Assembly (NCBI RefSeq): GCF_055900595.2
Contig: NZ_CM148325.1
Reading direction: 5' to 3' (one strand)
Length of the DNA: 64,000 nucleotides
A model generated the notes under the pieces. It made no database searches. It saw only the letters and a list, made by a program, of their open reading frames with translations, and was not told the DNA's origin. Shown piece by piece: positions 9,361 through 33,875 of this stretch (its first letter is position 1; each line of letters starts with the position of its first letter). Position numbers and translations under genes: made by a program.

Positions 9361-9654
9361 TCTATTGAAGAATGCCGGATACGAATGGTTTTGTGTCGTA
9401 TCCGGTAAATAATCTCACATCTGGTAATAAATATTTCTTCCATCGTATTTGCGAGCATGATCACGATTATTCATCGCGAAAATGTGATCTGTGCTGAAAA
9501 ATATCCCTTAACCGCCTTGCTTTGTTTTATCACTGTCCGGATTACGGACAGATTTTAGTATTGTTGTGAAATTATTCTGCTTTATATTTACCCTCAGAGA
9601 TGGCAACTGAAGCTCTTCCTCATGGGGCTTCTTAATCTGTGATAAGGGTAAAAA

Positions 9655-11208
9655 ATGCAAATGATTACCTCGCGACAAAACAGATTATTACGATTCCTTC
9701 TACCACGAAGGGAATATACGACTATTGTTACGATTGCCGGCTATTTAAATGTTTCGGAAAAAACCATTCAACGTGATTTACGTTTACTTGAGCAATGGCT
9801 GGGGCAATGGAGAATAAATGTTGAGAAGCGTGCTGGCGCGGGTGTGATGTTAAGCGCGGAGAATATTGCTGATTTGCTGCATCTTGATCATTTGTTGGTG
9901 GCAGAATGTGAAGAGATTGATGGTGTAATGAATAATGCCAGGCGCGTTAAAATAGCGTCGCAGTTATTAAGTGAAACACCGAATGAAACGTCGATCAGTA
10001 AATTGTCAGAACGCTACTTTATCAGCGGAGCCTCTATTGTTAATGACCTGAGAGTAATTGAGTCCTGGCTTGCGCCGTTGGGGTTATCGTTGATCCGCAG
10101 CCCAAGTGGTACGCATATTGAAGGTAGTGAAGGGCAAGTCCGACAGGCAATGGCATTACTGATTAACGGCATTATTAACCATAATGAGCCGCAAGGTGTC
10201 GTGTATTCACGTCTGGATCCCGGAAGCTATAAAGCATTAGTCCATTATTTTGGAGAGGAAGAAGTGTTATTTGTCCAGTCATTGTTACTGGATATGGAAA
10301 ATGAATTAAGTTGGTCTTTGGGAGAACCTTATTACGTTAACATTTTTACTCACATCCTTATTATGATGTATCGCAACACGCACGGGAATGCGTTATCAAG
10401 AGAAGAAGATCAAACCAGGCAATATGATGAAAATATCTTTAATGTTGCCAGTCAGATGATTCATAAGATAGAACAACGAATTGCACATACATTGCCCGAT
10501 GATGAAGTCTGGTTTATTTATCAATATATCATTTCATCAGGTGTGGCGATTGATGGACAAAAAGATGTTAGCATTATTTCACATATGCAGGCCAGCAATG
10601 AAGCGCGTCTGATTACCTGGCGTTTAATTACGGTATTCAGTGACATCGTGGACTGCGATTTTAGTGAAGACAGCGCATTATATGATGGCTTGTTGGTTCA
10701 TATTAAGCCGCTGATTAACCGTTTAAATTATCGCATTCATATCCGTAATCCATTGCTGGAAGATATTAAAGCAGAATTAGCGGATGTCTGGCGGTTGACG
10801 CAATATGTGGTGAATCAGGTATTTAAAACCTGGGGTGAGAATGCAGTGAGCGAGGATGAAGTGGGTTACCTGACCGTTCATTTTCAGGCTGCGATGGAGC
10901 GGCAAATTGCCCGTAAACGTGTATTACTGGTCTGTTCAACCGGAATCGGAACTTCGCATCTACTGAAAAGCCGTATTCTGCGAGCATTTCCTGAATGGAC
11001 GATTGTTGATGTTATTTCAGCAGCGAATTTATCACAGGTTTTGCCTGACAATATCGAACTGATTATTTCGACCATTAATTTGCCTACAGTCACTATGCCG
11101 GTCGCTTATGTTACCGCTTTTTTTAATGATGCCGATATTAAGCGGGTCACTGAAATGGTGATTACGGAAAAATTACATCATGCGACGTCTCGGGTCGTTG
11201 AAATTTAA
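9655..11208 (+). CDS. PRD-containing PTS-regulated transcriptional activator (HTH + PRDs + EIIB-like domain), frz operon regulator
   Basis: 517 aa; N-terminal HTH (TIVTIAGYLNVSEKTIQRDLRLLEQW), central PRD-like region, C-terminal EIIB-like segment RVLLVCSTGIGTSHLLKSR. Confidence 0.8.
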   Translation: MQMITSRQNRLLRFLLPRREYTTIVTIAGYLNVSEKTIQRDLRLLEQWLGQWRINVEKRAGAGVMLSAENIADLLHLDHLLVAECEEIDGVMNNARRVKIASQLLSETPNETSISKLSERYFISGASIVNDLRVIESWLAPLGLSLIRSPSGTHIEGSEGQVRQAMALLINGIINHNEPQGVVYSRLDPGSYKALVHYFGEEEVLFVQSLLLDMENELSWSLGEPYYVNIFTHILIMMYRNTHGNALSREEDQTRQYDENIFNVASQMIHKIEQRIAHTLPDDEVWFIYQYIISSGVAIDGQKDVSIISHMQASNEARLITWRLITVFSDIVDCDFSEDSALYDGLLVHIKPLINRLNYRIHIRNPLLEDIKAELADVWRLTQYVVNQVFKTWGENAVSEDEVGYLTVHFQAAMERQIARKRVLLVCSTGIGTSHLLKSRILRAFPEWTIVDVISAANLSQVLPDNIELIISTINLPTVTMPVAYVTAFFNDADIKRVTEMVITEKLHHATSRVVEI

Positions 11209-11234
11209 TGTCAGAATTTTATGAGGTATGACGA

Positions 11235-11705
11235 ATGGACATAACAAAAATCCTGAATACGAATCGCGTTATTTTAGATATGCAAGCGACGAATAAAGCG
11301 GAGGCGATTGAAGAATTAACTAATCTTCTCAAAAAAGATGGTGCGATCGATTGTCGGGAAACCTTTATTAAAGATGTCTGGCAGCGCGAAGCGGAAGGCT
11401 CGACTGGTTTTGAAAATCATATTGCGATCCCGCATGGTAAATCTTCAGCTGTGATTAATACTACGCTGGCAATTGGCCGTACCCGGCAGGATATTCCCTG
11501 GGAAACGCTGGATGGCAGTAGCGTGCGCTGTATTATTTTATTTGCGGTACGTCTTGAAGATCAAAATACCACCCATATCCGTTTACTTTCCCAGGTCGCG
11601 GGCGCGCTGGCGGATGATGACATCATAGAACAATTGTTAGTTGAGACGAGTCCGCAAAAAATCATTGATCTCTTTAGTCAGTATGCACAATCCGATGTCT
11701 GCTAA
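11235..11705 (+). CDS. PTS fructose-family EIIA component
   Basis: 156 aa; EIIA(Fru/Mtl/Ntr) phosphorylation-site motif HIAIPHG. Confidence 0.8.
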   Translation: MDITKILNTNRVILDMQATNKAEAIEELTNLLKKDGAIDCRETFIKDVWQREAEGSTGFENHIAIPHGKSSAVINTTLAIGRTRQDIPWETLDGSSVRCIILFAVRLEDQNTTHIRLLSQVAGALADDDIIEQLLVETSPQKIIDLFSQYAQSDVC

Positions 11706-11722
11706 ATAACAGGGAGTATGTC

Positions 11723-12037
11723 ATGAATATTGTCTGTGTTGCCGCCTGTACGGCGGGTATTGCTCATACCTATATTGCTCGTGAAAAGTTAATCAAAGGA
11801 GCAAAAGCTCTGGGCCATACCATTAAAGTTGAAACCCAGGGAACCATTGGTACAGAAAATGAATTACAGGCGGCAGATATCTCTGCTGCTGACGTCGTGA
11901 TTCTTGCTGTAGATGTGAAAATAAAAGGAGAAGAACGCTTCACCAATAAACGTATTGTGCGAGTAAAGACAGAGATTGTCATTAAATCGCCCGTTCAATT
12001 TCTTGAAAAGGTCGAAAAATCACTGGGAAACAAATGA
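11723..12037 (+). CDS. PTS fructose-family EIIB component
   Basis: 104 aa; motif CTAGIAHTYIA matches fructose-type EIIB CxxGIAHT active-site Cys loop. Confidence 0.8.
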   Translation: MNIVCVAACTAGIAHTYIAREKLIKGAKALGHTIKVETQGTIGTENELQAADISAADVVILAVDVKIKGEERFTNKRIVRVKTEIVIKSPVQFLEKVEKSLGNK

Positions 12038-12061
12038 TCCTTATACTGGAGGGATCTTAAT

Positions 12062-13153
12062 ATGAAAGACAATAAAATTCCGGTTTCACAGGAAATTAAA
12101 AAACATTTATTAACCGGCATCTCGTGGATGATACCCCTTATTGTGGCCGCCGGGATATGTATTGCGTTGGGGCAAGTTCTTGGCGGTACAGATGTTGGTG
12201 AAAAAACAGGAACAATCCCGTGGATGCTTAATCAGATTGGCGGCTGGGGAATGGGGCTGATTGTGCCGCTGATTAGCGCGGCAATTGCCTATTCTATTGC
12301 CGATCGTCCTGGATTTGCCCCGGGCCTGATTGTCGGCTTTCTCTGCGGGCAAATCCATACCGGATTTATTGGCGGTATGTTGGGTGGTTTCCTGGTGGGC
12401 TACACCATTTTGCTACTTAAACGCTATATCCGCCTGCCGCAGTCGATGCAAGGACTCATGCCAATCATGGTGTTGCCGGTATTAAGCACCATTATCGGTG
12501 GGCTGTTAATGATGACGCTGATTGGTAAACCCATCGCCTGGTTACAAGAAGCACTGATTCATTTGCTCGAGTCGATGCAGGGCGGATCGCGCTTCCTGAT
12601 GGGGGCCATACTTGGCGCGATGGCAACCTTCGATTTCGGTGGTCCGGTAAATAAAACAATGTCGTTGTTTTCCGATGGCTTGCTGGTCAGCGGCGTCTAT
12701 GGGCCAGAAGCCGTGAAATTTGTCGGCTCAATCATCCCTCCGTTTGGCATCACACTTTCGTTCTTACTGACACGCCATAAATACACCCGTGCGGAGCGCG
12801 AGGCGCTGAAAGCCGCGTTTCCGATGGGGATCTGCATGATCACTGAAGGAGTCATTCCAATCGCCGCGCGTGACTTGCTGCGAGTGGTGGGATCTTGTGT
12901 GGTGGCTTCTGCGGTAGCTGGCGGCTTGATCATGGTGTGGGGCGTGGAGAGTCCGGTTCCGCATGGCGGCCTGTTTGTTGTGCCTTTGTTCACCCATCCT
13001 CTGCTGTTTTGCCTGGCGCTGGGTATAGGCACGGTGATTTGTGGCGTGATGCTTTCACTCTGGAAGAAACCGGTAACGGAACGTGACGAAGAGTTTGACG
13101 AACTGAGCGATCAAAAGCTGAAAGATGAAGAGATCACTTTCACCCTCGAATAA
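12062..13153 (+). CDS. PTS fructose-family EIIC permease
   Basis: 363 aa polytopic membrane protein directly after EIIA/EIIB genes. Confidence 0.8.
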   Translation: MKDNKIPVSQEIKKHLLTGISWMIPLIVAAGICIALGQVLGGTDVGEKTGTIPWMLNQIGGWGMGLIVPLISAAIAYSIADRPGFAPGLIVGFLCGQIHTGFIGGMLGGFLVGYTILLLKRYIRLPQSMQGLMPIMVLPVLSTIIGGLLMMTLIGKPIAWLQEALIHLLESMQGGSRFLMGAILGAMATFDFGGPVNKTMSLFSDGLLVSGVYGPEAVKFVGSIIPPFGITLSFLLTRHKYTRAEREALKAAFPMGICMITEGVIPIAARDLLRVVGSCVVASAVAGGLIMVWGVESPVPHGGLFVVPLFTHPLLFCLALGIGTVICGVMLSLWKKPVTERDEEFDELSDQKLKDEEITFTLE

Positions 13154-13164
13154 CCGGAGGCCCT

Positions 13165-14016
13165 ATGTTTGCCGATATGAAAAGTATGGTGATGAAAGCC
13201 TGGCATGAACATTACGCCTTGCTGGCGATCAACTGTATGAATCTGGAAAGTGCTCACGCAGCTATCCGCGTGGCGGAGAAGAATCGCGCTCCGATCATTC
13301 TCAATCTCTATCAGGGGCATCTGGCGCATTTTCCTGCACCCGTCGCGGCGGCAGTGGTTAAAACGCTCGCGGAATCTGCCTCAGTACCGGTCGCTCTGGC
13401 GCTTGATCATGGCAAAAATCCGGACTGTATTCGTCAGGCGTTTCGTGCTGGTTTCAGCGGATTAATGATTGATGCTTCTGCTTTTCCCCTGGAGGAAAAC
13501 GTGCGCCAGACCAGGGCGGTGGTGGAACTCGCCGCCGGCGCGCAGCTCTGCGTGGAAGGCGAACTGGGCCATCTGGCAGATGCGCCGCGTTACGACCAGG
13601 CCACCAATGCCGACCTGATGACGCAACCCACTGATGTGGAAACGTTTATCGCGCAGACAGGCATTGATCTACTGGCCGTCTCGGTAGGCACGGCGCACGG
13701 CATGTACGCGCCTGGTGTTGTACCTGCTATTGATTTTCAGCGTCTGGCGGAGATTTTCCACTGCTCGAGCGTGCCTCTGGCATTACATGGCGGTAGCGGT
13801 ACGCCGTTCGATCAGCTCCAGCTCTGTACGACGCTGGGGGTAGCAAAAATCAACGTGGGGGCGGCCATTTTTGAACGGGGGAAATCCGCGCTCCTGCATA
13901 CCCTCTGTCACGATATATCCATTGAACTGGTGGACGCGCTGAAAGCTATGGAACTGGCCTTCGAAGAAGCGGTTACACCGTATTTACAGGCGAGCGGCTC
14001 TATCGGCAAAGCCTGA
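13165..14016 (+). CDS. class II ketose-bisphosphate aldolase (GatY/KbaY/FbaA family), paralogue 1
   Basis: 283 aa; class II aldolase signature region ...LALDHGKN... and GxxxGxxKINV-type C-terminal pattern. Confidence 0.8.
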   Translation: MFADMKSMVMKAWHEHYALLAINCMNLESAHAAIRVAEKNRAPIILNLYQGHLAHFPAPVAAAVVKTLAESASVPVALALDHGKNPDCIRQAFRAGFSGLMIDASAFPLEENVRQTRAVVELAAGAQLCVEGELGHLADAPRYDQATNADLMTQPTDVETFIAQTGIDLLAVSVGTAHGMYAPGVVPAIDFQRLAEIFHCSSVPLALHGGSGTPFDQLQLCTTLGVAKINVGAAIFERGKSALLHTLCHDISIELVDALKAMELAFEEAVTPYLQASGSIGKA

Positions 14017-14096
14017 TTCATTTTCTGTCATGGCCTTTATGCCAGTGCAATAACGCACCGGCAGGGCGGACTACACGCTGAAACTGGAGATTTAAC

Positions 14097-14957
14097 ATGT
14101 TAGTTTCGATGAAAGAATTACTGCAACCTACCCGCCAGCACGGCTTTGCCATTGGCGCATTTAATGTGGCGGATAACTGTTTCCTTCGCGCAGTCGTGGA
14201 TGAAGCAGAAGCGACAAATACTCCGGCGATTATTGCTATCCATCCCAGCGAACATGATTTTGTGGGCGATGCCTTTTTCGCTCACGTTCGCGAAATCACG
14301 CAGCGTAGTCCGGTGCCGTTTGTGCTGCACCTCGATCATGGCGCCTCTGTGGAGCACGTTTTGCGGGCGATTCGCTGTGGATTTACCTCGGTGATGATCG
14401 ACGGTTCGCTGCTGCCGTATGAAGAGAACGTGGCGCTGACCGCAGAAGTGGTTCGCCTGGCTCATGCGGTTGGCGTGTCGGTTGAGGGTGAGCTGGGGAC
14501 CATCGGACAAACAGGAACGTCAGTGGAAGGTGGAGTTTCACAAGTGACCTACACTGACCCGGCGCAAGCCGCCGATTTTATTGCTCGTACAGGGGCCGAC
14601 ACACTGGCGGTAGCGATTGGTACGGCACACGGCATCTATCCGAAAGGGATGCAGCCGAAGCTGCAAATGGACATTTTGCGCGACATTGCCGGGCGCATTG
14701 ATATTCCATTGGTGTTGCACGGTGGTTCGGCAAACCCGGACGCGGAGATTGCTGAATCCGTTACGCTCGGCGTTGGCAAAATCAATATCTCCAGCGATAT
14801 GAAATACGCCTATTTCCAGAAAGTGCGTGAAATTCTCGCTAAAGAGAGCTGGTGGGACCCGAACGTCATCTATCCGGATGCGATTAGCGCGGCGCGGGAA
14901 GTCATTCGCCACAAAATGAAACTGTTCGGTTCGCTCGGTAAAGCATCACTGTACTAA
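14097..14957 (+). CDS. class II ketose-bisphosphate aldolase (GatY/KbaY/FbaA family), paralogue 2
   Basis: 286 aa; motifs HLDHGAS, LVLHGGS, KINISSD typical of zinc-dependent class II aldolases. Confidence 0.8.
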   Translation: MLVSMKELLQPTRQHGFAIGAFNVADNCFLRAVVDEAEATNTPAIIAIHPSEHDFVGDAFFAHVREITQRSPVPFVLHLDHGASVEHVLRAIRCGFTSVMIDGSLLPYEENVALTAEVVRLAHAVGVSVEGELGTIGQTGTSVEGGVSQVTYTDPAQAADFIARTGADTLAVAIGTAHGIYPKGMQPKLQMDILRDIAGRIDIPLVLHGGSANPDAEIAESVTLGVGKINISSDMKYAYFQKVREILAKESWWDPNVIYPDAISAAREVIRHKMKLFGSLGKASLY

Positions 14958-15004
14958 GCCAGAAGGGCGGGGTGACCCGCCTTTTACGCAACAAGGAACG
15001 AGAT

Positions 15005-15937
15005 ATGCACTATCTGGGGTTGGATATTGGTGGGACCAAAATCGCCGCCGTCGTCATGGATGCGCATGGCTGGGAGATTCGCCGTTACCGCTGCCCGACG
15101 CAAAAGTCGACATATCAACAATTTGTCTCATGCGTTGTGGCGCTTATCGAGCAGATTAGGCGGGACGTTCAACGACCGATGCTGACAGGGATCGCCTTAC
15201 CCGGCAGTATCTCGCCACTCACTGGCCTGATTAAAAATGCGAATATTCAGGTGATTAACGGTCATGCGTTACAGGCTGATTTGCAGCAATTGCTTGGGCA
15301 ACCGGTGGTGATAGCCAATGATGGTAACTGTTTCGCGCTATCAGAAGCTTGCGACGGTGCCGGGCAAGATTATGATGTGGTATTTGGTATTACGCTTGGC
15401 ACTGGCTGCGGCGGTGGCATTGCCATCAAGCAACGACCGTTTATAGGGGCCTGGGGAAATGCTGCCGAATGCGGTCATATCACGTTGCCAGGCTATACGG
15501 AGCAGGAAGATGGTCCATCAGTCAGTTGCTATTGCGGCAAACACAACTGCGTGGAGTCGTTTGTTTCCGGCAGCGGTTTTAGTGAACGCTATCAACAGAT
15601 GACTGGTAACTTGCTCATTCCTGCGGCGATTGTCACCCTGGCACAACGTGGTGATGCTTGTGCCATGCAGCAGGTGGCACGTTTTCGCCAACAGCTTGCC
15701 CGCACGCTGGCAACCATCGTTAACGTTGTTGACCCTGGCGTGATTGTGATCGGCGGCGGGCTTTCGAATGTGGAACTGCTTATCACCGATCTGAACGCAG
15801 AAGTCGCTCCACTGGTTTTCACCGATCAATTCACCACTCCCATTGTAAAAGCGCAGCACGGCGACAGTAGCGGAATGCGTGGCGCTGCCTGGCTTGCTAT
15901 GCGCAACGGAGAAGCCAATGAAACGCTCACAAATTAA
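15005..15937 (+). CDS. ROK-family sugar kinase
   Basis: Start taken at MHYLGLDIGGTKI (ATP-binding DxGGT motif); Cys-rich zinc motif CYCGKHNC characteristic of ROK kinases. Confidence 0.75.
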   Translation: MHYLGLDIGGTKIAAVVMDAHGWEIRRYRCPTQKSTYQQFVSCVVALIEQIRRDVQRPMLTGIALPGSISPLTGLIKNANIQVINGHALQADLQQLLGQPVVIANDGNCFALSEACDGAGQDYDVVFGITLGTGCGGGIAIKQRPFIGAWGNAAECGHITLPGYTEQEDGPSVSCYCGKHNCVESFVSGSGFSERYQQMTGNLLIPAAIVTLAQRGDACAMQQVARFRQQLARTLATIVNVVDPGVIVIGGGLSNVELLITDLNAEVAPLVFTDQFTTPIVKAQHGDSSGMRGAAWLAMRNGEANETLTN

Positions 15938-16598
15938 TTATGTTATTGATAAAGCACATGCCATTGCGCAGACCTTCCGCGTTTGTTTGCCAGAGTTCGC
16001 CTATTTTACGGTGGATGACTGGCTGCAGCGGGAACGGGATAACTGGCAAGAAGTAGTCGACTTACAGCTCGGTTGGGATATCACCGATTTTGGTCGTGGT
16101 GATTTCAACCAAACGGGACTAACACTGCTAACGATGCGCAACGGCGCGCTGGGGTCGGCGGCATATCCAAAACCGTATGCTGAGAAAATGTTGCAGATCC
16201 AACAAGATCAGCAGACTCCCTGGCATTTTCACACCCACAAAATGGAAGATATCCTCAATCGGGGCGGTGGAGACTTATGCATGCAGTTGGCCTGGGCCAA
16301 CGAAGCCAATCTCTGTGATGATCAACGAGTCATTACCGTGAGTGTTGATGGTCAGCGGCGTACCATGAAACCTGGTGAAACGCTGGTGCTAAAGCCGGGG
16401 CAGGGCATTTGCCTGCCGCCGCGTCTGTATCATCGCTTCTGGGCGGAAAAAGCGTTTGTTCTCGGCTGGGAAATTTCGATGGTAAATGATGACCAACACG
16501 ATAATTATTTTCTTGAGCCGGGAGGACGTTTTCCGGCGATAGAAGAAGATGAACCGGTGAAATGGTTATTGTGCAGTGAGTATGGAATTTTGCGCTAA
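15918..16598 (+). CDS. cupin-superfamily sugar isomerase (D-lyxose/D-mannose isomerase-like)
   Basis: About 226 aa from MKRSQINYV; His-containing cupin motifs (WHFHTHKMEDI); overlaps the end of the kinase gene by about 20 nt, suggesting translational coupling. Confidence 0.6.
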   Translation: MKRSQINYVIDKAHAIAQTFRVCLPEFAYFTVDDWLQRERDNWQEVVDLQLGWDITDFGRGDFNQTGLTLLTMRNGALGSAAYPKPYAEKMLQIQQDQQTPWHFHTHKMEDILNRGGGDLCMQLAWANEANLCDDQRVITVSVDGQRRTMKPGETLVLKPGQGICLPPRLYHRFWAEKAFVLGWEISMVNDDQHDNYFLEPGGRFPAIEEDEPVKWLLCSEYGILR

Positions 16599-16607
16599 TA
16601 ACGGGGA

Positions 16608-16645
16608 ACGCTAGCGCTGATATCCGCTAGCGTCCTTATTTTTAC
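16608..16645 (+). terminator. rho-independent terminator of the frz operon
   Basis: Perfect 9-bp stem ACGCTAGCG / CGCTAGCGT with 8-nt loop followed by CCTTATTTTT. Confidence 0.5.
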
Positions 16646-18351
16646 TGCACCGGCTCCGTCGACGTAACTTCACCACTGGAAACTGCGCCCGCATTCATGG
16701 TTTGAGTCACTTGCTGCTTTGTGGCATTCACGGCATGCAATTGCCCGCTAACCGTAGGTTTCAGCGGGACATTGACCTGAATATCGCCACTGGCGGTAAG
16801 CTGAATATTGCCGTCGCCAGTCAACGGTAGTTCAGGCCATCCCCACTGTTGCAAAATATTCACCGGCACACCGCGTCCATTCAGGCTGATATGGGTCTGA
16901 CGTTGTGGCGTTTGTGAAACACTGGCGGTGGCTTCCAGAATGCCTTTTTCAGTAAATGCACTCAGTTCGCTGATATTCACCGTGCTGCTGTTGGCAGTTA
17001 GCGCCAGCGACGGACGACGGACATCAACACGATTAAACGTTGCGGCGGCGGCATTCAGATTCGCCGAGCCACTCCAGACGCCCCATTTATGATCGGTAAC
17101 CAGCGTCAGATTGGCACCGTAACCATCGAGCGCGGTGAGCTGCCACGGGAAGTCAGGGTCGATATCAATGATCAGATTGCGGCTGGCGCTAAATCTCTTC
17201 AGTTGCAGGCTGTTTAACCAACCGGGTGTCGTTTCCATCCACAACTGTTGCCAGTTTTTTGGCAAGGTATATTCCAGTCCGGCAATTGCCGCATCATCAA
17301 GGATCAACATTTTCCCGTCACGCAACCAGTTCCCTGACGTTCTGACCATGCCCCCTTCCCAGCGGCTGGTGAACTGGCGCAGTGCTACGCCCTGCGGGGA
17401 AAATTCCGCGTTTATAATCGGGTCAAATAAATGCAGCGAACCATAAATGAACTCGCTGGCGTTCATCGACAGTTTGCCTTCCTGTGTCTGCCAGTCATCT
17501 TTACTGAAGGTCATGTTGCGCAAGCTGAGATCGAGGTCGGTCACCGCCCAGTCCGGACCTTGCAGACGAGCGTCAATGACTTCCAGGCGACCAATCTGCA
17601 ACGACGGGACAGAGCGTAATGGCGCAAAGAAGTCGGTTAGCGATTTTTCGCTTTGTAGACGGATATCCGCCAGCCGCAGATTTTCCACTTGCCAGCTGCC
17701 GTCGGCGTTACGCTGCGCGTTTCCGGTTAATGTCCCGCGGGCGATGTCGGCACCCAGGTTAGTCAGCGTAACGCGATCGTTATCAATACTGCCTTCAATC
17801 AGTACATTGGTGGCAGGAACATCATTGAGCGAAAGCGATCCGGCACTAAACTGAATCTGCGCCTTCGTACCCAGCACTTTACCGGCTTCTGGTGACCACG
17901 GAACCACGCCACCATTTACCCGCTGCGCGCTCAGTTTCCATTCGCTATTCGGGCTATTAAACGCCATATCACGCAGTTGCAGACGATCGGCTTTGAACGG
18001 TAGCGGCGCGGTCTGGTCGGTGAGATTCAGCGTCCCGTTTTCCAGTAGGATGGTATCGACATGGCGTGGTTCGGTCAGTTGGCGACTGCTTAGCGCAATG
18101 TCGACACTTTTTGCCACCAGGGTCGCGGGCTGACCATCACGACCAAACGTGACGTTCTCCAGCACGATATGAGATGGCGCGGAAAAACGGTGATCCATCG
18201 CCCCGAAGGCCAGATGATAGTCGCTATTCTCGGAAACCCATGCGCTGATATGTTCTGCTCCCCAGCGGGTTTGCAGAAGAAAATAGAGGCCAGCGATCAC
18301 CACTAACAGAGCGATGAGAATGTAGAGAAGCAGCTTCCCAATAAATTTCAT
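16642..18351 (-). CDS. yicH: AsmA-family outer-membrane assembly protein
   Basis: 569 aa from MKFIGKLLLYILIALLVV (N-terminal membrane anchor); AsmA-like long beta-rich protein; K-12 synteny. Confidence 0.85.
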   Translation of the reverse strand: MKFIGKLLLYILIALLVVIAGLYFLLQTRWGAEHISAWVSENSDYHLAFGAMDHRFSAPSHIVLENVTFGRDGQPATLVAKSVDIALSSRQLTEPRHVDTILLENGTLNLTDQTAPLPFKADRLQLRDMAFNSPNSEWKLSAQRVNGGVVPWSPEAGKVLGTKAQIQFSAGSLSLNDVPATNVLIEGSIDNDRVTLTNLGADIARGTLTGNAQRNADGSWQVENLRLADIRLQSEKSLTDFFAPLRSVPSLQIGRLEVIDARLQGPDWAVTDLDLSLRNMTFSKDDWQTQEGKLSMNASEFIYGSLHLFDPIINAEFSPQGVALRQFTSRWEGGMVRTSGNWLRDGKMLILDDAAIAGLEYTLPKNWQQLWMETTPGWLNSLQLKRFSASRNLIIDIDPDFPWQLTALDGYGANLTLVTDHKWGVWSGSANLNAAAATFNRVDVRRPSLALTANSSTVNISELSAFTEKGILEATASVSQTPQRQTHISLNGRGVPVNILQQWGWPELPLTGDGNIQLTASGDIQVNVPLKPTVSGQLHAVNATKQQVTQTMNAGAVSSGEVTSTEPVQ

Positions 18352-32915: not shown

Positions 32916-33875
32916 ATGGATGCTACCCGGATAACCCTTCTGGCGCTTGATTTGTTCGGCTCGCCGGGCTGGAGCGCCGATAAAGAAATACAGCGGCTGT
33001 ATGCGCTCAGTAATCATGCCGCACGCCATTACCGACGGATTATTCTTTCTAAGCGTCACGGCGGTCAGCGGGTGGTGTTAGCCCCTGATTACTTGCTCAA
33101 AACCGTACAGCGCAACATTCTTAAGAACGTCCTTTCACAATTCCCTCTTTCCCCTTTTGCTACCGCCTACCGACAGGGTCGCCCAATCGTCAGCAACGCG
33201 CAGCCTCACTGCCAACAGCCGCAGATCCTTAAACTCGATATCGAAAACTTTTTCGATAGCATTAGCTGGTTACAGGTCTGGCGTGTGTTTAGCCAGACCC
33301 AGTTGCCACGCAATGTGGTAACCATGCTGACCTGGCTTTGTTGCTATAACGACGCGTTACCGCAGGGGGCGCCAACTTCGCCTGCCATTTCCAATCTTGT
33401 GATGCGCCGTTTTGATGAGTGCATAGGGGAATGGTGTCAGGCTCGGGGAATTACCTACACCCGCTACTGCGATGACATGACCTTTTCTGGTCACTTCAAT
33501 GCCCGCCAGGTTAAAAATAAAGTATGCGGATTGTTAGCGGAGCTGGGCCTGAGCCTCAATCAACGCAAAAGTTGCCTGATAGCTGCCTGTAAGCGCCAGC
33601 AGGTAACCGGGATTGTTGTTAATCACAAGCCACAGCTTGCCCGTGAAGCGCGCCGGGCGCTGCGTCAGGAAGTACACTTGTGCCAAAAATATGGCGTTAT
33701 TTCGCATCTTAGTCATCGTGGTGAACTTGATCCTTCTGGCGATCTCCACGCACAGGCAACGGCGTATCTTTATGCTTTGCAGGGAAGAATAAACTGGTTA
33801 TTGCAAATCAATCCTGAGGATGAGGCCTTTAAACAGGCGAGGGTGAGTGTAAAGCGAATGCTGGTGGCATGGTAA
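32916..33875 (+). CDS. retron-type reverse transcriptase (Ec107-like, 319 aa)
   Basis: RT motifs LPQGAPTSPAISNL and YTRYCDDMTF (YxDD catalytic box) plus retron-specific VTG motif (QQVTGIVVNHKP); 319 aa if started at MDATRITL; located between pyrE and slmA. Confidence 0.85.
   Translation: MDATRITLLALDLFGSPGWSADKEIQRLYALSNHAARHYRRIILSKRHGGQRVVLAPDYLLKTVQRNILKNVLSQFPLSPFATAYRQGRPIVSNAQPHCQQPQILKLDIENFFDSISWLQVWRVFSQTQLPRNVVTMLTWLCCYNDALPQGAPTSPAISNLVMRRFDECIGEWCQARGITYTRYCDDMTFSGHFNARQVKNKVCGLLAELGLSLNQRKSCLIAACKRQQVTGIVVNHKPQLAREARRALRQEVHLCQKYGVISHLSHRGELDPSGDLHAQATAYLYALQGRINWLLQINPEDEAFKQARVSVKRMLVAW

What the first reader, a model, noticed from the sequence alone, without database searches (positions are those of the whole stretch)
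9361..16641. About 7.2 kb accessory PTS sugar-catabolic operon (frz-like) inserted between yicI and yicH
Between the convergent core genes yicI and yicH lies a seven-gene plus-strand operon: PRD-containing activator, fructose-family PTS EIIA/EIIB/EIIC, two tandem class II ketose-bisphosphate aldolases, a ROK kinase and a cupin isomerase, ending in a clean intrinsic terminator. This composition matches the 'frz' operon described in extraintestinal pathogenic and avian pathogenic E. coli, where it was linked to fitness under stress. The substrate is, to my knowledge, still unidentified, and the pairing of two aldolase paralogues with a kinase and isomerase suggests a rare keto-sugar or sugar-phosphate pathway.
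Basis: partly seen in the sequence, partly recalled or inferred. Interest (0 to 1): 0.55.

Follow-up and report, generated by a model that had tools for sequence, protein, structure and literature searches.

The report
The known frz sugar operon

Summary
They encode a PRD-type activator, fructose-family EIIA, EIIB and EIIC, two class II aldolases, a ROK kinase and a D-lyxose/D-mannose-type cupin isomerase, and they end in a strong terminator.

It is the published frz operon. It has the same flanks and size as BEN2908 region GR27. The published frz PCR primers match perfectly and give the published 843-bp amplicon. K-12 has only a 52-bp spacer at this site. The locus is in 1606 of 5426 complete E. 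coli genomes.

Three refinements:
- **"Inserted" is doubtful.** The same cassette sits at the same yicI/yicH site in Citrobacter and Klebsiella aerogenes, and it has diverged about as much as the flanking core genes. One E. coli strain carries a deletion remnant. The cassette also lies at other sites in other genera.
- **The ROK kinase is dispensable.** It is absent or decayed in several genera.
- **Aldolase 1 is unusual.** It keeps its zinc and catalytic residues but has a conserved, degenerate phosphate-loop motif.

The substrate remains unidentified. Verdict: already known, low interest.

The parts
7042..9360 (+). yicI (alpha-xylosidase), left flanking core gene, preceded by yicJ
   Evidence: 97 % nt identity to K-12
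9373..9407 (+). Hairpin after yicI, also present in the K-12 spacer; no U-tract follows. The K-12-homologous sequence ends at about 9408.
   Evidence: -18.3 kcal/mol
9447..9492 (+). Two blocks conserved across Escherichia, Citrobacter and K. aerogenes: a CRP-like TGCGA-N6-TCACG (9450-9465) and AAATGTGATCTG (9480-9491). They are inferred catabolite-control sites.
   Evidence: alignment A3; reading of the sequence; inference
9533..9551 (+). Palindrome CTGTCCG-GATTA-CGGACAG. The outer arms TGTCC/GGACA are invariant in three genera, and the inner part changes without keeping pairing. Inferred operator of the PRD activator just upstream of the -35, rather than an attenuator hairpin.
   Evidence: inference
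9561..9588 (+). Inferred promoter: weak -35 TTGTTG (9561-9566), 16-nt spacer, -10 TATATT (9583-9588); the -10 block is conserved in three genera.
   Evidence: not found by the consensus scan because the -35 matches only 3 of 6; inference
9655..11208 (+). frzR: 517-aa DNA-binding PRD regulator (HTH_11, Mga HTH, PRD1, PRD2, EIIB-like domain with the Cys motif LLVCSTGIGTS). It has no CAT RNA-binding domain and no EIIA-like domain. The diagnostic frz PCR amplicon 10060-10902 lies inside it.
11235..11705 (+). PTS EIIA, fructose/mannitol type (IAIPHG phosphorylation-site motif)
   Evidence: TIGR00848, 127 bits, cut-off 103.5
11723..12037 (+). PTS EIIB, fructose type
   Evidence: TIGR00829, 100 bits, cut-off 76.9
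12062..13153 (+). PTS EIIC, fructose family; below the cut-off of every equivalog model (FruA, FrwC-type, MngA)
   Evidence: TIGR01427, 312 bits, cut-off 157.6
13165..14016 (+). Aldolase 1: divergent class II aldolase. The Asp-His, Glu and three His metal/catalytic positions are kept, but it has KINVGAA where relatives have KxNxxT(E/D). It is below all NCBIfam cut-offs.
14097..14957 (+). Aldolase 2: class II ketose-bisphosphate aldolase of subfamily NF006042 (PRK08185)
   Evidence: 524.6 bits, cut-off 405
15005..15937 (+). ROK-family sugar kinase with no HTH. It carries DIGGTK, NDGNC and the Zn motif CYCGKHNCVE. It is closest to the Mak manno(fructo)kinase model but below its cut-off.
   Evidence: (317.6 bits, cut-off 443)
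15918..16598 (+). Cupin sugar isomerase of the D-lyxose/D-mannose family; metal ligands H103, H105, E110 and H172 are invariant among orthologues. It overlaps the ROK gene by 20 nt.
   Evidence: 272 bits, cut-off 350; PDB 3KMH/3MPB, E 4e-64
16603..16643 (+). Intrinsic terminator of the operon; its U-tract overlaps the yicH stop codon
16642..18351 (-). yicH (AsmA family), right flanking core gene

Best explanation
The segment is the frz operon, an eight-gene PTS-linked carbohydrate cassette. Shown here: gene content, intactness, site, identity with the published locus, and distribution. Inferred working model follows. FrzR is a DNA-binding PRD activator of the MtlR/LicR/ManR/Mga kind. It probably binds the conserved TGTCC...GGACA palindrome just upstream of a weak -35 and turns on its own operon, with CRP-like sites upstream adding catabolite control. 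As in other PRD activators, its activity would be set by phosphorylation of PRD2 by HPr (activating). Phosphorylation of the EIIB-like Cys domain or PRD1 by the cognate EIIA/EIIB when no substrate is being transported would be inactivating. The fructose-family EIIABC takes up and phosphorylates a still unidentified sugar. The cupin interconverts a lyxo/manno-configured aldose and its ketose. The Mak-like ROK kinase phosphorylates free hexose at C6; it is an auxiliary step because several genera have lost it. The two class II aldolases cleave the resulting ketose phosphate to triose phosphates; aldolase 2 is probably the catalytic workhorse, and aldolase 1 is a specialised or partner subunit, by analogy with GatY/GatZ. 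Published mutant work attributes to the operon fitness in late stationary phase, under oxygen restriction, in serum and in the gut, and a bias of the fim switch to ON. Confidence is about 0.97 that this is frz, about 0.7 that it is a genuine uptake-plus-cleavage pathway for a rare fructose/mannose-like sugar, and about 0.3 for any particular order of steps.
For: Identity with frz:
- Same flanks and size as BEN2908 GR27.
- frz primers match perfectly with an 843-bp product.
- 98.3-98.6 % identity to ST131 and Nissle.
- Absent from K-12.
Gene functions:
- NCBIfam and Pfam assignments.
- PDB relatives: EcSI D-lyxose isomerase, E 4e-64; class II aldolases; NagK-type ROK kinases.
- Catalytic and metal residues are present in both aldolases, the ROK kinase and the cupin.
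- Phosphorylation motifs are present in FrzR and EIIA.
Selection:
- All eight ORFs are full length here and in 1601 genomes.
- The cassette is conserved in at least six further genera.
Regulation:
- Leader blocks are conserved across three genera.
ROK is auxiliary:
- It is cleanly absent in C. youngae, C. werkmanii and Buttiauxella, and is an internally deleted remnant in Izhakiella.
The cupin plus class II aldolase pairing recurs with other transporters and kinases:
- Salmonella, Pasteurella, Sporolactobacillus.
Phenotypes:
- From the literature (PMC8777976, PMC6727828, PMC6238794).
Against: - No substrate is known, and a 2021 review still lists frz as of unclear function.
- The cassette has no 1-phosphofructokinase-type (PfkB) kinase, so how a bisphosphate would be made is unexplained.
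- ROK kinases normally act on free sugars, and the characterised relative of the cupin acts on free D-lyxose/D-mannose. That fits poorly with PTS delivery of an already phosphorylated sugar.
- The cupin, ROK kinase, EIIC and aldolase 1 all score below the curated cut-offs of their nearest named families, so their specificities cannot be transferred.
- The promoter, operator and CRP sites are read from conservation only.
- The primary frz papers (Rouquet 2009; Reperant 2011) could not be read here.
Confidence: 0.9

Rival explanations
1. Frz is mainly a sensory PTS. The transporter and FrzR report availability of a trace sugar or the PTS phosphorylation state, and FrzR (or the metabolites made) acts on other loci such as the fim switch. 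Carbon flux through the enzymes would be negligible.
For: The published phenotypes are regulatory or fitness effects (fim switch orientation, survival in late stationary phase) rather than growth on a sugar. No substrate has been reported. The regulator is the first gene and carries an EIIB-like phospho-acceptor domain.
Against: Four metabolic enzymes with intact catalytic residues are conserved with the PTS across at least seven genera. That is hard to explain without metabolic use. The reviews read here give only a summary of the operon-deletion phenotype.
Confidence: 0.25
2. On origin: the cassette is a recent horizontally acquired islet inserted into the yicI-yicH spacer of ExPEC lineages.
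For: It is absent from K-12 and from A, B1, E and some D reference strains. frzR, EIIA and EIIB are at 41-44 % GC against about 52 % for the flanks. The cassette lies at other chromosomal sites in Raoultella, Buttiauxella and Izhakiella. In one Salmonella/Citrobacter-like genome it lies next to transposase and integrase fragments, so it can move.
Against: - The same site is occupied in Citrobacter (four species) and K. aerogenes.
- Amino-acid identity of frz genes to those genera (76-96 % and 65-94 %) spans the same range as yicI, yicH and xanP (82-96 % and 71-93 %).
- The low GC of the first three genes is shared by the other genera, so it is a property of the genes.
- Within E. coli the frz genes differ between this strain and ST131 by 0.2-4.5 %, like the flanks at 2-5 %.
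- The junctions carry no repeats or mobility genes.
- Strain HS-02 shows an independent deletion that leaves the leader and 266 bp of frzR.
Confidence: 0.3
3. The operon is a cryptic or decaying remnant without function in this strain.
For: The ROK gene has been lost repeatedly in other genera, and frz has been deleted in most E. coli lineages.
Against: All eight ORFs are intact with conserved catalytic residues. 1601 genomes keep at least 80 % of the region. Published deletion mutants have phenotypes.
Confidence: 0.04

Closest known systems
frz operon of avian ExPEC strain BEN2908 (Rouquet et al. 2009, J Bacteriol 191:4427; region GR27 in PMC12928451)
   Same: Same flanks (yicI/yicH), same length (7281 vs 7283 bp between flanks; about 7.23 kb of extra DNA vs 7227 bp), same gene content. 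The diagnostic primers match perfectly with the 843-bp product.
   Different: An allele about 1.4 % diverged from the B2 alleles, close to the 98.1 % reported for commensal SCU-397. This strain has no island at selC, whereas BEN2908 carries AGI-3 there.
Galactitol / N-acetylgalactosamine / D-tagatose PTS pathways (GatYZ and KbaYZ of E. coli; tag genes of Klebsiella oxytoca and Bacillus licheniformis). The comparison rests on my own knowledge of these pathways.
   Same: A PTS delivers a sugar phosphate that ends as a ketose 1,6-bisphosphate, which is cleaved by a short class II aldolase. The aldolase needs a second protein encoded next to it. No dedicated 6-phosphate kinase is present in gat/aga.
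   Different: The second protein here is a paralogous class II aldolase, not a GatZ/KbaZ-type protein. The PTS is of the fructose family, not the galactitol or mannose family. There is no PfkB-type ketose-1-phosphate kinase. A cupin isomerase and a ROK kinase are added. Identity of aldolases 1 and 2 to GatY/KbaY is only about 30-35 %.
EcSI / Z5688 D-lyxose (D-mannose) isomerase of E. coli O157:H7 (PDB 3KMH, 3MPB)
   Same: Same cupin family (PF07385), alignable end to end at E 4e-64, with conserved HxH...E...H metal site.
   Different: Only about half the residues are identical. The score of 272 bits is below the 350-bit equivalog cut-off. The genomic context is different. Substrate not tested.
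PRD-containing transcriptional activators MtlR, LicR and ManR (Bacillus) and Mga (Streptococcus)
   Same: N-terminal HTH + Mga-type HTH, two PRDs, and an EIIB(Gat/Lac)-like domain with a Cys motif. The regulator is encoded with its PTS.
   Different: It lacks the C-terminal EIIA(Mtl/Fru)-like domain of MtlR, LicR and ManR. It occurs in a Gram-negative host, where this regulator class is uncommon.
fru2 operon of Streptococcus agalactiae (Patron et al. 2017, cited in PMC8446444). It was described by the same group as a homologue of the Frz PTS (my recollection).
   Same: A fructose-family PTS plus an activator on an accessory region, induced in host fluids.
   Different: The enzyme set differs by my recollection (pentose-phosphate-type enzymes rather than aldolases, cupin and ROK). 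Not compared here.

Membership tests
frz operon (E. coli ExPEC/APEC) | Located between yicI and yicH | tested here: met
   GR27 flanks yicH..yicI in PMC12928451
frz operon (E. coli ExPEC/APEC) | Gene set: Mga/PRD-type activator, fructose-family EIIA, EIIB and EIIC, two class II ketose-bisphosphate aldolases, ROK kinase, cupin protein | tested here: met
   the published gene list is from my memory of the Rouquet 2009 abstract, because the paper is not held
frz operon (E. coli ExPEC/APEC) | Sequence identity with the published locus (diagnostic PCR target) | tested here: met
   Primers frz-FP and frz-RP match with 0 mismatches at 10060 and 10902, product 843 bp = published size. 98.3-98.6 % identity to B2 strains that are 99.5-100 % identical to BEN2908.
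frz operon (E. coli ExPEC/APEC) | Transcribed as one operon; deletion lowers fitness under stress and shifts the fim switch to OFF | not testable with these tools
   Literature only (PMC8777976). Short gaps or overlaps between genes and a single terminal terminator are consistent with one operon.
PRD-containing DNA-binding activators (MtlR/LicR/ManR class) | HTH + Mga-like DNA-binding domains followed by two PRDs | tested here: met
   (HTH_11 7-63, Mga 100-169, PRD 209-294 and 324-413)
PRD-containing DNA-binding activators (MtlR/LicR/ManR class) | C-terminal EIIB-like and EIIA-like regulatory domains | tested here: inconclusive
   An EIIB-like domain with a Cys motif is present (422-498). No EIIA-like domain was found, and the protein ends at residue 517.
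BglG/SacY-type antiterminators (the RefSeq product name of this gene) | N-terminal CAT RNA-binding domain acting on a RAT/terminator leader | tested here: not met
   There is no CAT domain; the N-terminus is HTH_11 + Mga. GlcT and LicT models match only the PRD region, at 65 and 46 bits against cut-offs of 320 and 300. The leader palindrome is conserved in sequence, not by compensatory change. No Rfam match.
PTS fructose (Fru) family EII | EIIA, EIIB and EIIC domains above the fructose-subfamily domain cut-offs | tested here: met
   TIGR00848 127 bits (cut-off 103.5), TIGR00829 100 bits (cut-off 76.9), TIGR01427 312 bits (cut-off 157.6). No equivalog (FruA, MngA, Frw/Fry/Frv) reaches its cut-off.
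Class II (metal-dependent) ketose-bisphosphate aldolases, short GatY/KbaY-like type | Asp-His dyad, three His zinc ligands, catalytic Glu | tested here: met
   D81, H82, E131, E133, H178 and H208 are invariant in both paralogues and in GatY, KbaY and YdjI
Class II (metal-dependent) ketose-bisphosphate aldolases, short GatY/KbaY-like type | K-x-N-x-x-(T/S)-(D/E) loop that helps hold the DHAP phosphate. The role of this loop is from my knowledge of FbaA/AgaY structures. | tested here: inconclusive
   Aldolase 2 has KINISSD. Aldolase 1 has KINVGAA in E. coli, Citrobacter and K. aerogenes. The effect on activity is unknown.
D-lyxose/D-mannose isomerase (NF051472, PF07385) | Score above the equivalog cut-off; cupin metal site | tested here: inconclusive
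   272 bits against a cut-off of 350. The metal ligands are conserved. Family membership at Pfam level is clear, but substrate equivalence is not.
Mak manno(fructo)kinase (NF007108) | Score above the equivalog cut-off | tested here: not met
   317.6 bits against a cut-off of 443. The general ROK kinase motifs are present. The Pasteurella neighbour of a related cupin does pass, at 515 bits.

The most novel reading that the evidence does not exclude
The conserved core of the cassette is the fructose-family PTS, the Lyx-type cupin and a pair of class II aldolases, one with a degenerate phosphate-binding loop; the ROK kinase is optional. This core could encode an undescribed catabolic route for a rare lyxo/manno-configured sugar. 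In that route the cupin would act on the PTS product, and the two aldolase paralogues would work as a heteromer or on a non-canonical (mono-phosphorylated) ketose. Naming that sugar would explain the gut and serum fitness advantage of B2 E. coli.
Probability: 0.2. Interest if true: 0.5.

Novelty: already known. Interest (0 to 1): 0.15.

Why it matters
frz is used as a virulence-associated marker in APEC/ExPEC typing and has published fitness and adhesion phenotypes, so recognising it in a genome is routine annotation. What remains open is its substrate and the role of its unusual enzyme set. The comparative points found here narrow the experiments needed:
- the cassette sits at the same site in three genera;
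- the ROK gene is repeatedly lost;
- aldolase 1 carries a conserved variant loop;
- the leader carries a conserved palindrome and CRP-like sites.
They also caution against calling the locus an ExPEC-specific insertion. It follows phylogroup: it is present in B2 EPEC E2348/69 and in a commensal, and absent from the APEC strain chi7122.

Tried and rejected
- The primary papers could not be read: Rouquet 2009 (PMC2698472) and Reperant 2011 (PubMed 21477255) are not held. Claims about them rest on secondary papers or are marked as my recollection.
- Two literature searches for a substrate gave nothing relevant. Further searches found only reviews that call the function unclear.
- The RefSeq label 'BglG family transcription antiterminator' was considered and rejected. 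There is no CAT domain, and the leader hairpin at 9533-9551 behaves as a conserved palindrome, not a covarying RNA stem. Rfam finds nothing in 9000-17000.
- The simple promoter scan found no site in the leader. The promoter proposed here comes from cross-genus conservation only.
It returned only four frz-type loci (all Citrobacter) among 80, so it cannot be used as a census.
- The context of a roughly 53 % identical cupin (P0071) was uninformative. The O157 Z5688 neighbourhood was not recovered.
- Low GC of the first three genes as a sign of recent transfer was rejected, because Citrobacter and K. aerogenes show the same pattern.
- No target-site duplication or inverted repeats were seen at the junctions.

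Full report
**What is there**

Between yicI (7042-9360, +) and yicH (16642-18351, -) lie eight consecutive plus-strand ORFs:

| Gene | Coordinates | Size |
|---|---|---|
| regulator | 9655-11208 | 517 aa |
| EIIA | 11235-11705 | 156 aa |
| EIIB | 11723-12037 | 104 aa |
| EIIC | 12062-13153 | 363 aa |
| aldolase 1 | 13165-14016 | 283 aa |
| aldolase 2 | 14097-14957 | 286 aa |
| ROK kinase | 15005-15937 | 310 aa |
| cupin | 15918-16598 | 226 aa |

- Gaps between genes are 12-81 nt, or overlaps.
- The only strong terminator follows the last gene: stem 16603-16637, -19.3 kcal/mol, z = -3.6, then a U-tract that overlaps the yicH stop codon.

**What the genes are**

- *PTS proteins.* NCBIfam places all three in the fructose family above the domain cut-offs. 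None reaches the cut-off of a named equivalog such as FruA or MngA.
- *Regulator.* It has HTH_11, an Mga-type HTH, two PRDs and an EIIB-like domain with the motif LLVCSTGIGTS. It has no CAT RNA-binding domain and no EIIA-like domain. The RefSeq name 'BglG family antiterminator' is misleading.
- *Aldolase 2.* It belongs to subfamily NF006042 (524.6 bits, cut-off 405).
- *Aldolase 1.* It is more divergent and below every cut-off.
  - In an alignment with GatY, KbaY and YdjI, both paralogues keep the Asp-His dyad, the Glu residues and the three zinc histidines.
  - Aldolase 1 reads KINVGAA where the others read KxNxxT(E/D) and aldolase 2 reads KINISSD.
  - The variant is conserved in Escherichia, Citrobacter and K. 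aerogenes.
- *ROK protein.* It has the kinase and zinc motifs and no HTH. It is nearest the Mak manno(fructo)kinase model but below its cut-off.
- *Cupin.* It aligns end to end with the O157:H7 D-lyxose/D-mannose isomerase EcSI (3KMH, E 4e-64) and keeps the metal ligands. It scores 272 bits against a 350-bit equivalog cut-off.

**Identity with frz**

- The BEN2908 genome paper defines region GR27 as yicH..yicI, 7283 bp, containing the 7227-bp frz operon (PMC12928451). The window interval is 7281 bp.
- Against the K-12 empty site the extra DNA is about 9409-16636, roughly 7.23 kb.
- The frz PCR primers published for APEC typing (PMC6238794) match the window with no mismatch at 10060 and 10902. 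This predicts exactly the published 843-bp product.
- The segment is found in 1606 of 5426 complete E. coli genomes:
  - 1601 of them cover at least 80 % of it;
  - a dog isolate is 100 % identical;
  - ST131 and Nissle 1917 are 98.3-98.6 % identical.
- This is the frz operon itself.

**Published function**

- The operon is transcribed as a unit.
- It supports survival in late stationary phase under oxygen restriction, and growth in serum and the gut.
- It favours the ON state of the type 1 fimbriae switch (PMC8777976, PMC6727828, PMC6238794).
- A 2021 review still lists frz as of unclear function (PMC8069529). I found no paper that names a substrate.

**Distribution**

The supplementary table of the BEN2908 paper gives the pattern among reference strains.

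- Present in all B2 strains examined, including EPEC E2348/69.
- Present at 98.1 % identity in the commensal SCU-397.
- Absent from APEC chi7122, O157:H7, 11368, 11128, H10407, E24377A, 042, 55989 and K-12.

It therefore follows lineage rather than pathotype.

**Inserted or lost?**

*For long residence at this site:*

- The same eight-gene cassette lies at the same place (yicJ-yicI | frz | yicH-xanP-gltS) in Citrobacter (four species) and in K. aerogenes.
- Divergence matches the flanking core genes:

| Comparison with the window | frz proteins | yicI | yicH | xanP |
|---|---|---|---|---|
| Citrobacter | 76-96 % | 88 % | 82 % | 96 % |
| K. aerogenes | 65-94 % | 88 % | 71 % | 93 % |

- The low GC of frzR, EIIA and EIIB (41-44 %) is also seen in those genera.
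- Within E. coli, nucleotide identity between this strain and ST131 is 95.5-99.8 % for frz genes and 94.8-98.1 % for the flanks.
- E. coli HS-02 keeps the leader and 266 bp of frzR fused to yicH, which is an independent deletion.
- The junctions carry no repeats or mobility genes.

*For mobility:*

- The cassette lies elsewhere in Raoultella terrigena, Buttiauxella and Izhakiella.
- In one Salmonella/Citrobacter-like genome it lies upstream of yicJ, next to transposase and integrase fragments.

I conclude that occupancy of the yicI/yicH site is old. Loss from K-12-type lineages is at least as likely as gain in ExPEC. The direction cannot be settled here.

**Other comparative points**

- *The ROK gene is optional.* It is cleanly absent in C. 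youngae, C. werkmanii and Buttiauxella, and is an internally deleted remnant in Izhakiella. The conserved core is therefore the regulator, EIIABC, two aldolases and the cupin.
- *The cupin plus class II aldolase pairing recurs in other contexts:*
  - with an MFS transporter, mutarotase, PfkB kinase and Zn-ADH in Salmonella;
  - with an ABC transporter, Mak, PfkB and xylulokinase in Pasteurella;
  - with a fructose-family PTS, a PRD regulator, a DUF4432 protein and xylulokinase in Sporolactobacillus.

**Regulatory region (inference)**

The 294-nt leader has blocks that are invariant across three genera:

- a CRP-like TGCGA-N6-TCACG at 9450-9465;
- AAATGTGATCTG at 9480-9491;
- a palindrome at 9533-9551 whose outer arms TGTCC/GGACA are invariant, while the centre changes without preserving pairing;
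- TTTAGTATTGTTG;
- a TATATT -10 at 9583-9588, 16 nt downstream of a weak TTGTTG -35.

This fits an activator-dependent, catabolite-controlled promoter with the FrzR site upstream of the -35. It does not fit a RAT/terminator attenuator. Rfam finds nothing.

**How it most likely works**

- *Shown:* an intact, conserved PTS, regulator and enzyme cassette.
- *Inferred:*
  - FrzR, controlled by PTS phosphorylation, activates the operon.
  - The Fru-family EII imports and phosphorylates an unidentified sugar.
  - The cupin interconverts a lyxo/manno-configured aldose and its ketose.
  - The ROK kinase is an auxiliary C6 kinase for free sugar.
  - The aldolase pair cleaves the ketose phosphate to trioses, with aldolase 1 perhaps a partner subunit by analogy with GatY/GatZ.
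- *Weak points:*
  - There is no PfkB-type kinase to make a bisphosphate.
  - PTS delivery fits poorly with enzymes whose relatives use free sugars.
- *Rival:* a mainly sensory role for the PTS and FrzR, which the published regulatory phenotypes allow.

**Verdict**

- The locus is already known and interest is low.
- The residual open question is the substrate, which needs experiments.

Noticed in passing
window 32916-33875 (+): A 319-aa reverse transcriptase lies between pyrE and slmA. Its best PADLOC model is RT_Ec107-like (441 bits). This is the classical pyrE/ttk site of retron Ec107 (my recollection of Herzer et al. 1992). The msr/msd RNA was not looked for.
   Followed up: partly
window 1-5357: The gene order is K-12-like, nlpA-yicL-setC-tRNA-Sec (tRNA at 5263-5357, minus strand), with no island at selC. 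The otherwise near-identical genome NZ_CP098223.1 (10 mismatches over window 16590-64000) carries an integrase-led island at selC instead, and similarity stops at window position 5248.
   Followed up: partly
L011, L012, L013 (Citrobacter youngae, C. werkmanii), L097 (Buttiauxella), L096:9474-10000 (Izhakiella): The ROK kinase gene of the frz cassette is cleanly missing in the first four loci. In Izhakiella it is an internally deleted remnant (first ~127 codons plus the C-terminal end). This shows repeated loss of this one gene.
   Followed up: yes
L090 (E. coli HS-02) 4001-4571: A remnant allele keeps the frz leader plus 266 bp of frzR joined directly to a slightly shortened yicH. It is an independent deletion of the operon within E. 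coli.
   Followed up: yes
window 13165-14016, and L003:7240-8091, L006:7245-8096: Aldolase 1 carries KINVGAA in place of the KxNxxT(E/D) loop of GatY, KbaY, YdjI and aldolase 2. The variant is conserved in three genera, and all metal and catalytic residues are kept. Its meaning is unknown.
   Followed up: partly
window 14097-14957: Aldolase 2 is the most diverged frz gene between this strain and ST131, at 95.5 % nt identity against 97.8-99.8 % for the other seven. This may be a recombination patch.
   Followed up: no
L007:7598-14541 and L008 (Salmonella enterica): An integrase-adjacent cluster encodes an MFS transporter, aldose epimerase, Lyx-type cupin (62 % identical to the frz cupin), class II aldolase, PfkB kinase, Zn-ADH and a DeoR regulator. 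It looks like an aldose to ketose to ketose-1-phosphate to DHAP-plus-aldehyde route. I know of no characterisation.
   Followed up: no
L098:2988-11400: In a Salmonella/Citrobacter-like genome the complete frz cassette lies upstream of yicJ, between a transposase fragment and an integrase Arm-binding fragment, while yicI and yicH are adjacent. This is evidence that the cassette moves.
   Followed up: partly
L005/L006:10747-14910 (K. aerogenes): Between the frz cupin and yicH, K. aerogenes carries three extra genes: an RpiR-type regulator, a GH4 glycosidase and a PTS EIICB. The yicI-yicH interval therefore accumulates sugar genes in that genus.
   Followed up: no
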